NCBI RefSeq assembly: GCF_001447785.1
Contig: NW_015172610.1
Coordinates: forward strand, 99,343 to 163,342
Length of the DNA: 64,000 nt
Source of the DNA: Gekko japonicus
Taxonomy: Eukaryota
Direction: 5' to 3'
Below are positions 6,001 to 12,000 of the stretch, piece after piece (position 1 is the stretch's first letter; every line of letters begins with the position of its first letter). The position numbers are program-made.

Positions 6001-9000
6001 GTGATCCCCACTGAAATACATGGGGTTCATACAGCAGGAGTGCAGTGCAGACCTCACCTTAAATGCTTTGCCTGTATTTGTTCATCTGTAAACTTGATCT
6101 AAATTACCCCTTATTGTTGTGGAAATCAAGGACACCATTAAAATGTATTAAATGTATTAGAATATCTAAAATGCCTTTGGTAGCTGGTAAATTATCTGTG
6201 TTCTCATTTGGCATTTCTAATAAATATAATAAGCATGATGATTAATCTAATCACCTAGTTGATAAGAAGCGGTAAACAATCCAGAATCCAAATGCATGCT
6301 TTTGTCTTTTCTAGAAATTCAATGTGGGATTTGATATCTATGCTGCCCATTGGTACCCTCTGGCAGAACACTAGAGAGTGCCTCATTTCAGCTTTCTTTT
6401 TCTTTCAGATATAATTGTTGAAATGCTCACACACAAGCTTCATCAAGAAAGCTAGCAAAAACACAAACACCCACACCCTGCAAGTCACCATTCATTGATC
6501 TAAAATTCATGGCAGACATGTCAGTTATCTTTAAATACACTGTATGGTGTCTGTGTGTTTTTTCTGTGTTAATATGCAAGTTAATACGGAAAAAGAACCT
6601 TGTCTATTTCCCCTCCCCCCAAATCCATTGGGATCATTCTTCTGGCTGTTTATAAATGAAAGACTATTCAACCTGACACAACTTACTCCTCATATGTGAA
6701 GAAATCCCAAACCTCCCCATAATCACACAGCTAATGTTAATGATCATAAATGGATACTCCCATTACATTTTTAATTAGCTAAAATTTCCTTTGATGTAGC
6801 TTTGTGAATGGTGTTCATAATCGTTATTGAAACGCACATGTGGCTCTTCTGGAAATAAAAGGAGTTTACTGGATGTCTGTGCCCTGTGGGAAGATACTGT
6901 CTTTTATCTGAAATATTGGTGAATTCTTCTTGAAGACCAGTAGAAGTTCAGAAAGCTGCAGAGAAAGAGGATAAGTGCATGTCTGCTTTATAGTGCTTGT
7001 GAAACTTTCAATGCAGTCCTAAAATCCTGACGCTAGTGCATCACCGACACTGTTGCTAGCATCACTAGACAGTATTCTATGCCTGCTCTTCCAAGAGCAT
7101 ACCTGTGCATATAGTTTGGGGGGGGGGGTAATGTCCTGAACAAGGAGGAGAGGTCATAGCAAGTGAACAGTAGCAAGTAGTGTGGTGCTGCCAATAACCC
7201 CATGAAGGGCAGATAGAAACATGACATCAGGCTACCACTGCCCAAATGAAGAACATGCCAAGGACAGCAATAAACGAAACACAGCCCTGGGTGCTCCTGG
7301 GTGCTCTGCAGATGAGGGTTTGAGTCTTTCCTGCAAAAAAAGTTCCTTTTTGCTAGGCATACACACAAGGAGCAAATCATGACCACTCCAGCTACAGCAT
7401 CCATCCACTTCTAATAGGTCATTCAGCAAAGGCAATGCCTATAGAATACCCAAGACCTCTCCTGTCCAAAAGTTCAGGTCTTGGGGTGATCACAGTTTAG
7501 AAGCACCAGCCTTTTGGCAGGTGATGGGAATGCAGACACTGAGGGTATGCACAACTGCACATCCATAAAAGACATTCCTGTTAATTCCCCAGTTCCTCAC
7601 TGGGAAAAGACACTGGTGTCAAACTAAGACTATGGGTACCTATGGGAAATATTGACAAGAATACATGCCTCACTTTATAGAAAGCAGCCATGTTAATCTC
7701 TTGAGCAAAATAGACTCATGAAAGTTCATGCTGAAATAAATGTTGTTAGTCTGTAAGGTGCTACGGGGCTTCTGTTTTATTCACCTGTAAACACACACAA
7801 AAACAGAAACAAAGCTTGTGAGGTCTACTGAAGGAGAAGACCAAGCTTCAATTGACCAACAAAACTAAAGTCTTGTTTGAATTAAATATATTGAAATATA
7901 TTAAGAACCATGCAGTCACAACATACAGGTTTTATATACAATAAGAGCATTGCTGTAGGAAGCGCCTATACTTAATTTTTTTAACCCCCGAAGGGATATT
8001 TTTATTATTTTTTCATAAAACTACATAACTACAAAGAAATATATGGGGGGACTACAACTATGGATAAAGAAAAGATACCCATACTAACTAAAAACCCAAG
8101 AGAGGGAGATCACATCCATGTTAAACTAAATAATAGTAATTAAAGTGTTAGTAACATAATATACTTGTAAAGTTCTTGTTTTTCACAGCTTCTATGTTAG
8201 TATGTTAGTTATTATGAGAGAACTTTCTGAGCATCTTCTTTACTTCAAAAGGCGATTTTCAAAGTCCTTCTGCCCTTACTTTGGTTTTCTATCTCTAAAA
8301 TCATATACAGCTTTCATTGCTCCCGCACCCGTTTCAACCACAGAGTCCTCATCCATTCCAGAGGCGGCAGAGTCACTTCATTTGGTTTCTTCATCTTTGG
8401 ATTCTTCCCCCAATCCCAGCTGATGTCTCAGGAATTCCTTGGCTTTAAAGATGGAGTCAATCTTCTCTCTTTTATTGTTGATATTAAAGATGACACCTTC
8501 GGGGATCGCCCAACGGTACTGAATCACATTAGTTTGAAGAAAAGAGGTTAAGTCCTTATAGCTTTTCCTCTTTTGACGAATTTCAAATGGAATGTCTTTT
8601 AAAGTCTTAATGATTGTATTCCCCAATTTCAGTGGAGTTGCTGACGTTGCCTTTAATATAGCATCTCTGGTCTGTCTTCTTGCAAATCTGACCACAATCT
8701 CTCCAGGCAGACTATTTTTTAAAATATAATTGGCGTAAGCCCGATAGGCAGTCTCCATATCTTTTACTATTTCATCCGCTGGTAAGCCTGTTACTGGAGC
8801 AATAATCTCGCCCAGAGTCTTCTTCAGATCTTCTTTTTCAGTTTCAGGAACTCCCTGGAATCTGAGAATAATGTTGGCCTTTTCCATTTGCAGCTGCAAC
8901 AGATGGTTTTCTTGGAGGTTTTGTTTTGTTTCCACGTCTCCTATTCTTTTCTTCATTTTCTTGTTTGCGGTGTCCATCTCTGTGATTTTCTCAGTCACAT

Positions 9001-12000
9001 GCTCCACTTTCTTCTCCATTTCTGCCAGCTGGCGCTGCTGTAGAGTGAAGTTTTGGTTTAGCAAGGTCAGTTGCTGGTTAATACCATTGAGTTGCTCCAT
9101 CATCGGCTTGAGCATATCTGCTAACATGTTCATGATGTCTGCTCCCTCTTCCGGTTTTGGGCTCTGACTGCCCGGTGCTTTCGCTTTTAACTTTCCTCGG
9201 GAAGCTGCCATTTTACAGCTTTGTTTACAATTTTAAACTGCTTCACAGGGGCTCGAAAAACTTGTCACTTCACTATCGGCACTCAAGTAAGTCTCTCAAA
9301 ATAAACTCGCTGTTTATTTCCTCCCTTTCCCCTTCGATACATTTACCTGTGTCCCTCTTTGCGCTCCACTTTTCCCACGGGGGGGATTCATTTTTTAAAA
9401 TAGACTGTTTACTTAGAACTCACGTTCATTGTTGGTCATATCTCTGACCTCGCTCACATCATTCGTTATTCCGCTCGATCTCCCACGCTTGTCCCAGTCG
9501 AATTAGCTTGTGCCAGGAGGCCACACAATGGCAGAACTGTCAGGGCAGAAGGAAGCCTCGATTCTCCGGCATCAAGCCGTCGAAGAGGCTAACTCTCAAA
9601 AGCCCTCTGGCCTGGAGCCTATCACAAAGGCTCCATGGGGGTGCCACTTGAGGTAACACCCCTCCATGCCGCTGGTGTGCTAATCTCTCCCCCAAGGTCT
9701 GAGGAGAGCGACCGCCATCGCCAATCCACAAACCCAAAGCTCCTATACTTAATTGAGAAACATTGGGTTTATGGTCTGGTACCGTTTCATTAAATCTTTA
9801 GCAGCACACAGCTCATACTTGGCACATATTTTCTGCAGGCCCAGATTTCACAAAAAGTCAAATTCAAATCACTATCCACAGTCTTTTGTTAACTGCAACC
9901 CCCCCCCCAATCCAGAAGTTGTGAGGAGCTGGTCAAAGTAAGAAGGTAAGCTCTGAAGTAGCGACCTGGTTGTTGTGACTTTCTTCTTTTTAATAAAATT
10001 AGATGTTTTAAAATGCAGGAGTCATGTTCTTTCTTTCTTTCTTACAAAAGGAAGAGTTTATAAACCCTTTTCAGCCCTTCCAACTGGGGCTGGAGACATA
10101 ATGGAAGTAGTGGAAGTAGCGCTGGGGGCGTGAAAAGTGGAAGCACAAGACTTAGGCCTGCTATTGTTTTGAAGGACATAATGTACGGATCTTTCAAGAT
10201 CTTACACAGGCTAAATAAGAAGCTATGTAACTGAAATTACAGTTTCTCTAAAGAGAAACACAACTACAGATGTGACTTTCCTTTTAAACTTACATTTAGA
10301 TAGAGGACAGTGGTGCAGAATAAAAGAGAAAGGTGACAAAGCAGAATCTAAACGCTTTGAAACATTGGTGGCAAAAGCACAGCAAAGAGGTGAGGATGAA
10401 GAATAAGTGCAGAATAGCAATGAAAAACAGCATAGAGGTACTAAAAAGTGAGAGGAAAGAAGGATGAGAGAAATCAGTCAAAGTTCCTGCCTCACAAGGT
10501 GTTCTTCAAGGATTTAAAAAGGAGTTAGGTTACAAAAATATATACAATCTGGCTGACTCTGTTGAGGAAGAAAAATAAAAATCAATTTGGAAAGGTGGAC
10601 AATTCAAGGAGTTGAAGTAGGACTGCCAGGTCCCTCCTGGCAACCAGTTGGGGATGAAGGGGGACTTACCAGGAGCGGGAAGGAAACCCAGCCAACATTG
10701 CAGCAACATGTCTACGTCACTTCTGAAGTGACCCAGACGTGATGTCATCATGCAACAATGTCAGGGCAATGCTCTGGTATTTGGGGAAAAACTCTATGGT
10801 AAATTTGGCCTCTACTATAGAGTTTTTGCCCAAATACCAGAGCATTGCCCGATGTCGCTGACATGATGACATCAATTTGGGGTCACGTCGGAAGTGACAT
10901 AGACTCATCATTGCCTCAACTGGGCCTCACTCTATTTCCAGGTAAGTCCCCCCATCTGCCAGCTGATCTGCAGTGGTGTGGTAAGGTCTGGTGGCAGGGG
11001 ACTCCAACCTCCACTGGGGGGGGGGAATCTGGAAATACTAAATTGAAGGAAGAGATGGGAACAGGGAAAGGATGATGAAAAGGAAATGATGGAGAAGAAA
11101 TGCAGAGTTATTTAACATATTTTCTGATAGACAATATGTTAAATACAAGTGGGGGTTTTCCCCAGCCCAACTCATGTCTAACGTGTGACCCAATACTTGC
11201 CTTAAAAATAGGGGGGGGGGGATAATCATGTCCTGGACAGACACATGAAACCAGCAGTGAAACAAACAGCCCTCACCCACTGACCTTTTCTTTTAGTGAA
11301 AGCACATGGGATGGAAGAGAGGAATGATGAAGCCACTCCTGCTGCTTATGACACACTTAGGAGTCTATCCCTTCTCCCCATTATTTTAAAGGTGAGTTCT
11401 GGATCACACATTAAACAGGAGTTGGGTTGGGATTTTACCAAACTCATATTGCATTTAACTTATCATCTAATCAGACCCAAAGACAATAAATGGAAAAGGA
11501 GGACGCAAAGAAGCTCAGAGACAAATTGCAGCAGTTCAGTACCAAACTGCAGGGAAACCATTATGCGAAAAGACCCTTTGAATGTTGTACTATATAAAGG
11601 GCTCCTAGAACATTAGGGAAACAATTCCACTCCAGTGTATTCCCTGTTGTGCCAATTTTCTACATGCAAGGATTTTTAAAATACAAGCAATAATTATAAT
11701 ATGATCCCCACCTGCAGTCTGGAGAGGTACAGTTCATTTTACAAGCTCAAAGCTCTGCAACCTTATTCCCTCTGCATTCTGCTGTACGTACAGACTATGG
11801 GTGTGCATTTGGCTTTGCCAAATGGAATAAATAGCACCTAAATACCTTATCTGTATTTTTGGGGTATGTATTCAGTTGAATCAGACTCTCTAATGGGGCT
11901 GTAGGGTACAATGCAGAGATCGTGCCACCACGGTGCAACTCCAGAGAAGGGGTTTAAACTTTTTAACCCCCTTCTCCACTTCCCCAGCCATCCCACCTTG

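What the first reader, a model, noticed from the sequence alone, without database searches (positions are those of the whole stretch)
7965..9754. ORF1-only L1-derived retrotransposon family (HAL1/half-L1-like), three copies within 34 kb
Seen: a TSD-bounded 1.76-kb unit of 5' UTR, L1-type ORF1p, ~300-nt 3' UTR and poly(A). All three copies (2632, 7978, 36114 ends) terminate at the same 3' point right after this UTR, so ORF2 was absent from the mobilised RNA rather than deleted afterwards. Established: half-L1 (HAL1) elements that keep only ORF1 and borrow ORF2p in trans are a known class. Inference: this is an abundant squamate family of that architecture, possibly of independent origin and uncatalogued; it supplies its own RNA chaperone while parasitising L1.
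Basis: partly seen in the sequence, partly recalled or inferred. Interest (0 to 1): 0.75.

Follow-up and report, generated by a model that had tools for sequence, protein, structure and literature searches.

The report
ORF1-only L1-like retrotransposon family (HAL1-like)
This is a short mobile element that keeps only the RNA-binding gene (ORF1) of an L1-type retrotransposon and must borrow the copying enzyme from elsewhere. This design is known from mammals as "half-L1", and here it turns up in what appears to be a non-mammalian vertebrate.

Summary
Window 7978-9741 (minus strand) is a 1,764-bp unit between exact 13-bp target-site duplications. It reads 530-nt 5'UTR, ORF1, 293-nt 3'UTR, short A-run, with no ORF2.

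Two more copies end at the same 3' base. Copy B (34744-36114, + strand) is 5'-truncated. Copy C (2632-3239, minus strand) has 15-bp duplications and a twin-priming-type 5' inversion.

The protein is an L1-type ORF1p with coiled coil, RRM and CTD. A family profile hits human L1 ORF1p in the PDB at E=1.4e-14. The AlphaFold model (pLDDT 89.6) has the L1 ORF1p trimer as its top Foldseek hit (E=1.6e-10). It misses Pfam's Transposase_22 cut-off.

Copies A and B share the ORF1-stop/3'UTR junction yet differ at Ks 0.53 with Ka/Ks 0.15 (bootstrap 0.10-0.22). The ORF1-only design therefore spread through at least two source lineages under purifying selection. That fits a HAL1-like non-autonomous element and not decayed L1s or retrocopies of one gene.

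Not testable here: host species, genome-wide copy number, the parent and partner L1, and Repbase/Dfam status.

One oddity: the terminal A-run is only 5-7 nt in all three copies, and two of the three lack AATAAA.

Verdict: a new member of a known kind, of moderate interest.

The parts
9742..9754 (.). Copy A: target-site duplication, 5' side of the element (element lies on the minus strand)
   Evidence: Exact 13-bp repeat of 7965-7977, read.
9212..9741 (-). Copy A: 5'UTR, 530 nt, probable internal promoter region (inferred)
   Evidence: GC 49%, CpG obs/exp 0.68 against 0.25 for the whole window. 9-11 stops in each sense frame. No Rfam or tRNA match. Positions about 13-122 recur inverted in copy C.
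8378..9211 (-). Copy A: ORF1, 277 codons plus a premature TGA; coiled coil about residues 26-112, RRM about 113-205, CTD about 206-265
   Evidence: ORF list. PDB L1 ORF1p E=1.7e-4 for the single sequence and 1.4e-14 for the profile. AF2 pLDDT 89.6. Foldseek top hit 2yko, E=1.6e-10. ATG context A at -3 and G at +4, read.
8276..8377 (-). Copy A: former C-terminal tail of ORF1 (33 codons plus the family's TAA stop at 8276-8278), now behind the premature stop
   Evidence: In frame and open in copies B and C. P0001 residues 6-302 of 305 align by tblastn across 8279-9172, E=4e-90.
7983..8275 (-). Copy A: 3'UTR, 293 nt, AT-rich (GC 31%), ending in a CCC-TTCG-GGGGG palindrome
   Evidence: Aligned without large gaps in all three copies. 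7-9 stops per frame.
7978..7982 (-). Copy A: terminal A-run (5 nt, or 7 if the two T of the TSD are counted)
   Evidence: Read.
7965..7977 (.). Copy A: target-site duplication, 3' side
   Evidence: Exact 13-bp repeat of 9742-9754.
34744..36114 (+). Copy B: 5'-truncated copy. It holds the last ~140 nt of the 5'UTR, ORF1 (ATG 34885-34887, TAA 35812-35814) with one 3-nt, one 1-nt and one 2-nt deletion, the 3'UTR at 35815-36107 and A7 at 36108-36114. No TSD was found.
2641..3132 (-). Copy C: direct 3' part, made of the last ~70 codons of ORF1 (TAA 2930-2932) and the 3'UTR
2632..2640 (-). Copy C: terminal A6 (2635-2640) followed by TAT
   Evidence: Read.
3133..3239 (+). Copy C: inverted piece of the element's 5' end (positions about 13-122 of the unit), the arrangement that twin priming produces, with about 1.1 kb missing between the two pieces
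   Evidence: BLASTN 86.9% over 107 bp in the opposite orientation. nhmmer E=2e-21.
2617..2631 (.). Copy C: target-site duplication GGACACTCTACATAT, 3' side
   Evidence: Exact 15-bp repeat of 3240-3254.
3240..3254 (.). Copy C: target-site duplication, 5' side

Best explanation
This is a non-autonomous, ORF1-only derivative of an L1-type LINE, i.e. a 'half-L1'/HAL1-like element. A transcript of about 1.76 kb starts at the 5'UTR (inferred internal promoter). It encodes a coiled-coil/RRM/CTD ORF1 protein that presumably coats its own RNA in cis. The RNA is then copied into the genome by target-primed reverse transcription, using an endonuclease/reverse transcriptase (ORF2p) supplied in trans by an autonomous L1-type element elsewhere in the genome. 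Shown here: the architecture, the fold and family of the protein, the insertion hallmarks, the shared ORF2-less junction, and purifying selection on ORF1 across two ORF2-less subfamilies. Inferred: promoter activity, cis-binding by ORF1p, and the identity of the trans-acting partner.
For: (1) Architecture: one full-length unit sits between exact 13-bp TSDs. No ORF2 is present. tblastn of 150 relatives, two of which carry an endonuclease domain, hits only the two ORF1 regions plus one unrelated spot. The UTRs have 7-11 stops in every sense frame. (2) Protein: the PDB's best sequence matches are human L1 ORF1p, E=1.7e-4 for the single sequence and 1.4e-14 for a profile of 61 sequences, covering coiled coil, RRM and CTD. 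The AF2 model with MSA has pLDDT 89.6. Foldseek ranks 1-11 are all L1 ORF1p entries, best E=1.6e-10. 440 homologues were found at E<=1e-3. One is named by UniRef as an Anolis carolinensis L1 RRM-domain protein, and two relatives continue into Exo_endo_phos. Atlas neighbours are chordate L1 ORF1/L1TD1-like clusters. (3) Retrotransposition hallmarks: TSDs of 13 and 15 bp, a common 3' terminus in 3 of 3 copies, one 5' truncation, and one 5' inversion of the twin-priming type. (4) Lineage: A and B share the stop/3'UTR junction, and A versus B gives Ka 0.081, Ks 0.534, Ka/Ks 0.151 over 306 codons. The bootstrap 95% interval is 0.10-0.22, the maximum of 2,000 replicates is 0.30, and the Fisher test gives p=6e-23. 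Every domain is below 0.22. Retrocopies of a single source would give at least 0.5, because at least half of the path between two dead copies is neutral. B and C are 7-9% apart while A is 14-16% from both, so there are at least two subfamilies.
Against: Pfam Transposase_22 scores only 15.0 bits (cut-off 22.4, E=0.031) on this protein, and only 8 of 61 relatives reach E<=0.001. The terminal A-run is 5-7 nt in all three copies. A canonical AATAAA near the end exists only in copy A, whereas vertebrate L1s are described as ending in AATAAA plus poly-A (PMC5381506, section 13). Copy B has no detectable TSD. No autonomous L1 is present in the window, so no partner or parent was identified. Only three copies were seen, so the family's size is unknown. 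The nick sites implied by the two TSDs (TTAATT|GA and ACATAT|TG) are AT-rich and end in T, but they are not the canonical TTTT|A that I recall for L1 endonuclease.
Confidence: 0.8

Rival explanations
1. The element is ORF1-only as described, but its partner is not a relaxed, poly(A)-primed L1. Instead a LINE of the L1/Tx1 group or another clade recognises the conserved 3' end (GC palindrome plus a templated short A-run), as in 'stringent' LINE/SINE pairs.
For: The A-run is uniformly 5-7 nt in three copies of different age, and 2 of 3 copies lack AATAAA. The 3'UTR is far more conserved between A and B (15.7% raw difference) than synonymous sites (ps 0.38, Ks 0.53). The last 21 nt are conserved.
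Against: The terminal hairpin is not supported by folding: z-scores are -1.25, +0.37 and -1.20. TSDs of 13-15 bp and a twin-priming-type inversion are what I recall as typical of L1. The protein is L1-type. The three insertion sites are unrelated, so the element is not site-specific like Tx1.
Confidence: 0.1
2. The copies are processed pseudogenes (retrocopies) of a domesticated host gene derived from L1 ORF1 (L1TD1-like), and not a self-propagating element family.
For: The ORF is under purifying selection. Atlas neighbours include clusters auto-named 'LINE-1 type transposase domain-containing 1'. The copies have short A tails and TSDs, as any L1-made retrocopy would.
Against: A single source gene predicts Ka/Ks of at least 0.5 between two dead retrocopies. 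The observed value is 0.15, with a bootstrap maximum of 0.30. Three independent insertions fall within 34 kb. The full-length copy carries a 530-nt CpG-rich 5'UTR whose very 5' end recurs in copy C, as expected for an element with an internal promoter.
Confidence: 0.06
3. The copies are ordinary autonomous L1 insertions that lost ORF2 by deletion after insertion.
For: None specific. Internal deletions do occur in old LINE copies.
Against: A and B are 14% apart in the ORF and belong to different subfamilies. Yet they have the same stop-codon/3'UTR junction with no large gap, and all three copies end at the same base. No ORF2 remnant was found.
Confidence: 0.02

Closest known systems
Mammalian HAL1 ('half-L1') elements (Smit 1999; Bao & Jurka 2010, cited in PMC5753468, passages read)
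   Same: A non-autonomous L1 derivative that encodes only ORF1p and spreads as a family with retrotransposition hallmarks. ORF1 is kept under selection here.
   Different: HAL1 is described in the passages I read only for mammals, where it arose several times. This ORF1p is only 20-23% identical to human L1 ORF1p in the structural alignments, and its best named relative is from a lizard. Tails are 5-7 A, with no conserved AATAAA. No DNA comparison with Repbase HAL1 entries was possible.
Autonomous vertebrate L1, e.g. the Anolis L1_AC families (PMC5381506, sections 7 and 13 and passages)
   Same: 5'UTR followed by ORF1 with coiled coil, RRM and CTD. ORF1 is 933 nt, within the quoted lizard range of 762-1,125. 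The ORF is A-rich (37% A). The 3'UTR is AT-rich and 293 nt long, within the quoted clade-1 range of 194-570.
   Different: No intergenic spacer and no ORF2. Total length is 1.76 kb, against 5.4-6.4 kb. The 5'UTR of 530 nt falls between the two lizard classes (about 229 and about 1,268 nt). No canonical polyadenylation signal in 2 of 3 copies.
L1TD1, a host gene domesticated from L1 ORF1 (PMC4161310, passages read)
   Same: An ORF1-derived protein without ORF2.
   Different: The element here is multi-copy, TSD-flanked, 5'-truncated or inverted, and has at least two selected source lineages.
SINEs and processed pseudogenes mobilised by L1 in trans
   Same: Dependence on a foreign reverse transcriptase/endonuclease (inferred), plus TSDs and a 3' A-run.
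   Different: This element encodes and conserves its own RNA-binding protein.

Membership tests
L1-type (type II) ORF1p | N-terminal coiled coil | tested here: met
   The AF2 model with MSA has a single helix at residues 26-112 with pLDDT above 90 over most of it. It aligns to the coiled-coil end of the human L1 ORF1p trimer. The oligomeric state itself was not tested.
L1-type (type II) ORF1p | Central RRM followed by the L1-specific CTD | tested here: met
   The profile matches 2ykp at E=1.4e-14, 2ldy (RRM-CTD) at 5.4e-13 and 2w7a (RRM) at 1.5e-9. Foldseek ranks 1-11 are all L1 ORF1p entries.
L1-type (type II) ORF1p | Reaches Pfam's curated Transposase_22 (PF02994) threshold | tested here: not met
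   15.0 bits against a cut-off of 22.4, E=0.031. Only 8 of 61 relatives match at E<=0.001. This is a divergent branch that the Pfam model covers poorly. Sequence profile and fold still place it with L1 ORF1p.
HAL1-like (ORF1-only L1 derivative) | Full-length copies carry ORF1 but no ORF2 | tested here: met
   The 1 full-length TSD-bounded copy and the 1 5'-truncated copy both run from the ORF1 stop straight into the same 3'UTR and end. No ORF2 remnant was found. The sample is only 2 informative copies.
HAL1-like (ORF1-only L1 derivative) | Spread by retrotransposition: TSDs, common 3' end with A tail, 5' truncation or inversion | tested here: met
   TSDs of 13 and 15 bp in 2 of 3 copies. Same 3' base in 3 of 3. 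One truncation and one inversion. Caveat: the A-runs are only 5-7 nt.
HAL1-like (ORF1-only L1 derivative) | ORF1 maintained by selection within the ORF2-less lineage | tested here: met
   Ka/Ks of 0.15 (0.10-0.22) between two ORF2-less copies of different subfamilies.
HAL1-like (ORF1-only L1 derivative) | Derived from an identifiable autonomous L1 (shared UTRs or ORF1) and mobilised by its ORF2p | not testable with these tools
   No eukaryotic genome, Repbase or Dfam was on hand. There is no L1 ORF2 in the window. The prokaryote genome collection gave nothing.
HAL1-like (ORF1-only L1 derivative) | A repeated family genome-wide | tested here: inconclusive
   Three copies lie within 34 kb of a 64-kb window. 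The genome-wide count could not be obtained.

The most novel reading that the evidence does not exclude
A HAL1-type parasite of L1 arose independently outside mammals. It persisted long enough to split into at least two co-existing, selected ORF1-only lineages (Ks about 0.5 apart), with UTRs more conserved than synonymous sites and a templated short A-run in place of a true poly(A) tail. This would be an ORF1-carrying non-autonomous element that is recognised through its 3' end, and that is absent so far from the literature and the repeat libraries.
Probability: 0.25. Interest if true: 0.6.

Novelty: new member of a known kind. Interest (0 to 1): 0.4.

Why it matters
HAL1-type elements are natural experiments on what L1 ORF1p is for. 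An RNA that keeps ORF1 under selection while stealing ORF2p indicates that ORF1p acts in cis and is needed for efficient mobilisation. A non-mammalian example with two long-lived selected lineages would show that this strategy is not a mammalian peculiarity. It would also offer a compact 1.76-kb substrate for testing cis-preference and 3'-end recognition in the multi-family L1 communities of reptiles, amphibians and fish. For genome annotation, such units are easily mislabelled as truncated L1s or as 'L1 RRM domain-containing' genes.

Tried and rejected
- The word-indexed protein search with the window ORF found nothing. With profile A2 it returned only P0079. With P0001 it returned only P0001 itself, source 'lgn', on a 1,540-nt contig, unnamed. 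I did not trace that source.
A labelled ORF1p phylogeny (squamate L1 families against mammalian HAL1) could not be made.
- Single-sequence AlphaFold was useless (pLDDT 54). The model with MSA was used instead.
- The search for related loci on genome contigs failed with the alignment. With the protein, 129 pattern matches gave no relative. This was expected, since that collection is bacterial and archaeal.
- Rfam and ARAGORN over the unit and the window gave no SINE-like tRNA/7SL/5S head and no significant family.
- RNA folding of the last 86 nt of each copy gave no significant structure, so I do not claim a 3' stem-loop.
I counted stops in a script instead.
- No TSD was found for copy B at up to 1 mismatch in 10-14-mers.
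- I searched the supplement of PMC5381506 for four short motifs of the element and got 0 hits. The file prints sequence in blocks of ten, so the search was uninformative.
- Bao & Jurka 2010 (PMC2923044) is not held. What I say of it comes from citing passages.
- Literature searches for a reptile HAL1: HAL1+Anolis gave 2 papers. HAL1+reptil gave 6 papers, 5 listed. The six-term search had no HAL1 occurrences in its top 20. 'lacking ORF2' with three other terms gave 0 papers. The passages I read (PMC5753468, PMC8535693, and the chameleon preprint, where the hit is a 'HAL100' lamp) mention no reptile HAL1. The other listed papers were judged by title only.
- Complex prediction for an ORF1p trimer was not run, and I make no binding claim.
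Full report
**What is in the sequence**

The finding lies on the minus strand. An exact 13-bp direct repeat (CCTATACTTAATT) at 7965-7977 and 9742-9754 brackets a 1,764-bp unit at 7978-9741. Read in the sense orientation, the unit holds:
- a 530-nt 5'UTR (9741-9212);
- an ATG in a good context (A at -3, G at +4);
- an ORF of 277 codons ending in TGA (9211-8378);
- 33 further in-frame codons down to a TAA at 8278-8276;
- a 293-nt AT-rich 3'UTR (8275-7983);
- an A-run of 5-7 nt.

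BLASTN of the unit against the window gives three more HSPs. An nhmmer profile of the copies finds the same places and nothing else.
- Copy B (34744-36114, + strand) is 83.5% identical over 1,383 bp and begins about 140 nt before the ATG.
- Copy C has a direct 3' part (2641-3132, minus strand, 83.8% identical) joined to a 107-nt piece of the element's 5' end in inverted orientation (3133-3239, 86.9% identical).
- The whole of copy C sits between exact 15-bp repeats (GGACACTCTACATAT, 2617-2631 and 3240-3254).

All three copies end in register at the same base. A 21-nt motif of the terminus occurs three times, against none in 100 shuffles.

The corrections are these. Copy A's ORF has a premature stop where B and C read TCA, so the family's ORF is 311 codons. 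The 'poly(A)' is very short. Copy C is inverted at its 5' end. Copy B has no detectable TSD.

**What the protein is**

Pfam gives only a sub-threshold Transposase_22 match: E=0.031, 15.0 bits against a cut-off of 22.4. Other evidence is clear:
- Against PDB sequences the best hits are human LINE-1 ORF1p (2ykp/2yko, E=1.7e-4), aligned over residues 63-242, which span the end of the coiled coil, the RRM and the CTD.
- An exhaustive HMMER scan of 1.84 billion representatives finds 440 relatives at E<=1e-3 and 163 at E<=1e-10. The best is P0001, at 50% identity and 305 aa.
- A profile of the window protein plus 60 of these relatives (A2) hits L1 ORF1p structures at E=1.4e-14 (2ykp), 5.4e-13 (2ldy, RRM-CTD) and 1.5e-9 (2w7a, RRM).
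- Only 8 of the 61 sequences reach Transposase_22 at E<=0.001. This is a branch the Pfam model covers poorly.
- AlphaFold with that alignment gives pLDDT 89.6: a long helix at 26-112, then two alpha/beta domains. The single-sequence model was poor, at pLDDT 54.
- Foldseek against the PDB ranks L1 ORF1p entries in places 1-11, best E=1.6e-10 over 219 columns at 20-23% identity.
- One relative (P0079) is named by UniRef as an Anolis carolinensis 'L1 transposable element RRM domain-containing protein', 31% identical.
- Two relatives (P0021, P0129) continue into an Exo_endo_phos endonuclease domain, at or just below Pfam's cut-off. Some members of the protein family therefore sit in front of a LINE ORF2.
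- The Atlas look-alikes are chordate L1 ORF1/L1TD1-type clusters.

In the alignment, the basic KRK at residues 214-216 sits opposite the human ARR motif. R215 is nearly invariant in A2.

**Why ORF2 was absent from the RNA**

Copy A is a complete insertion between TSDs and has no room for ORF2. tblastn of all 150 listed relatives against the window hits only the two ORF1 regions and one unrelated spot. The UTRs carry 7-11 stops in every sense frame. Copies A and B run from the same TAA into the same 3'UTR without a large gap.

These two copies are not recent duplicates. Their flanks differ, and they are 14% apart in the ORF. Copies B and C are 7-9% apart, and A is 14-16% from both. So at least two subfamilies are present.

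Over 306 comparable codons, A versus B gives Ka 0.081, Ks 0.534 and Ka/Ks 0.151. The bootstrap 95% interval is 0.10-0.22, the largest of 2,000 replicates is 0.30, and Fisher's test gives p=6e-23. All five protein segments lie between 0.07 and 0.21.

If both copies came from one source (one master element or one host gene), at least half of the path between them would be neutral post-insertion decay. Ka/Ks would then be at least 0.5. The data reject that. Since Ka is 0.08, the two copies together have decayed by at most about 8% since insertion. The remainder (Ks of at least about 0.45) accumulated in two separate ORF2-less source lineages that kept ORF1 under purifying selection.

The 3'UTR differs by only 15.7% between A and B, against 38% at synonymous sites. 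The UTR therefore seems constrained too. This rests on a Nei-Gojobori estimate from only 192 synonymous sites.

**How it most likely works**

Shown:
- the architecture;
- an L1 ORF1p-type protein;
- TSDs of 13 and 15 bp, a 5' truncation, and a 5' inversion of the kind twin priming makes;
- selection on ORF1.

Inferred:
- The CpG-rich 5'UTR acts as an internal promoter. Its CpG obs/exp is 0.68 against 0.25 for the window. Its very 5' end is retained in copies A and C.
- ORF1p binds its own transcript in cis.
- An autonomous L1-type element provides endonuclease and reverse transcriptase in trans.

No such partner lies in the window.

**What does not fit neatly**

The A-run is 5-7 nt in all three copies despite their different ages. 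Only copy A has an AATAAA near the end, and it lies inside an A-specific insertion. Boissinot & Sookdeo state that L1s of all vertebrates they studied end in AATAAA plus a poly-A tail (PMC5381506, section 13).

The end is preceded by a conserved GC palindrome, but folding gives no significant structure (z = -1.25, +0.37, -1.20). A partner that recognises the 3' end, instead of any poly(A), therefore remains a live rival at about 0.1.

**Comparison with what is known**

HAL1 ('half L1') is described as a non-autonomous L1 derivative that encodes only ORF1p and that arose several times in mammals (PMC5753468, passages). See also PMC4161310 and PMC8535693 (passages). The primary paper, Bao & Jurka 2010, is not held. 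The present family works like a HAL1 and meets every defining feature I could test.

Its dimensions fit those quoted for lizard L1 parts (PMC5381506, section 7). ORF1 is 933 nt against a range of 762-1,125. The 3'UTR is 293 nt at GC 31%, against 194-570 nt at 33%. The ORF is A-rich, at 37% A.

The 5' terminus contains ATGGCG about 25 nt from the start. That resembles the lizard clade-1 consensus quoted in that paper, but this is a lead only.

I found no report of a reptile HAL1 in the held library (searches; details under Tried and rejected). Repbase, Dfam and subscription journals could not be checked. The bioRxiv supplements are closed, so some relevant material may have been out of reach.

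**What stayed unchecked**

- The host species. 'Squamate' is plausible from the Anolis-named relative, but it is not shown.
- The genome-wide copy number.
- The parent and the partner L1.
- The labels of the 150 relatives.
- The collections metagenome contigs and viral contigs, which were closed. The prokaryote collection gave nothing.

I do not take the window for human. It carries this non-mammalian-type L1 ORF1 family. Its PABPC1-like exon differs from the human protein at 2 of the 56 aligned residues from the start methionine. The N run at 44329-44661 was left as it is.

**Verdict**

It is a new member of a known kind (HAL1-like), probably the product of an independent origin outside mammals. 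Interest is 0.4, and confidence in the main explanation is 0.8.

Noticed in passing
window 59089-59256 (minus strand), with a (TGA)20 microsatellite at 59326-59386: This is an exon-like stretch encoding the N-terminus and first RRM of a cytoplasmic poly(A)-binding protein. It matches human PABPC1 structures (4f02, E=7.9e-36) with 2 differences in the 56 aligned residues from the start methionine, and it hits Pfam RRM_1 at E=2.1e-10. The frame ends after ...GYAY, as at an exon end. The microsatellite lies just upstream. If this is exon 1 of a minus-strand PABPC1 gene, copy B and perhaps the other copies could lie in or near its introns. That was not tested.
   Followed up: partly
window 44662-45730 (minus strand), next to the N run 44329-44661: Long open frames carry a weak reverse-transcriptase match (RVT_1, E=6.8e-6, 26.4 bits, below the cut-off of 29.6). 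They are interrupted by the 333-base N run. This is a different retroelement from the ORF1-only family. Its class was not determined, and the Ns were not filled.
   Followed up: partly
window 7976-7982, 36108-36114, 2635-2640: The terminal A-runs of the three copies are uniformly 5-7 nt, and 2 of 3 copies lack AATAAA. This suggests a templated A-run and not a post-transcriptional poly(A) tail.
   Followed up: partly
window 9212-9741: The 5'UTR of copy A keeps CpG obs/exp 0.68 (up to 1.09 in a 200-nt stretch), against 0.25 for the window as a whole. This fits a young insertion or a protected, promoter-like region.
   Followed up: no
window 48967-49160: A 94-bp unit is repeated twice in tandem at 92% match. 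Its nature is unknown.
   Followed up: no
window 55294-55905 (minus strand) and 4725-5309 (plus strand): These are open frames of 203 and 194 aa with no Pfam match at E<=0.01. One unlabelled multi-domain protein (P0071, residues 464-518) matches 55321-55485 on the opposite strand at E=1e-6. They may be remnants of other repeats.
   Followed up: no
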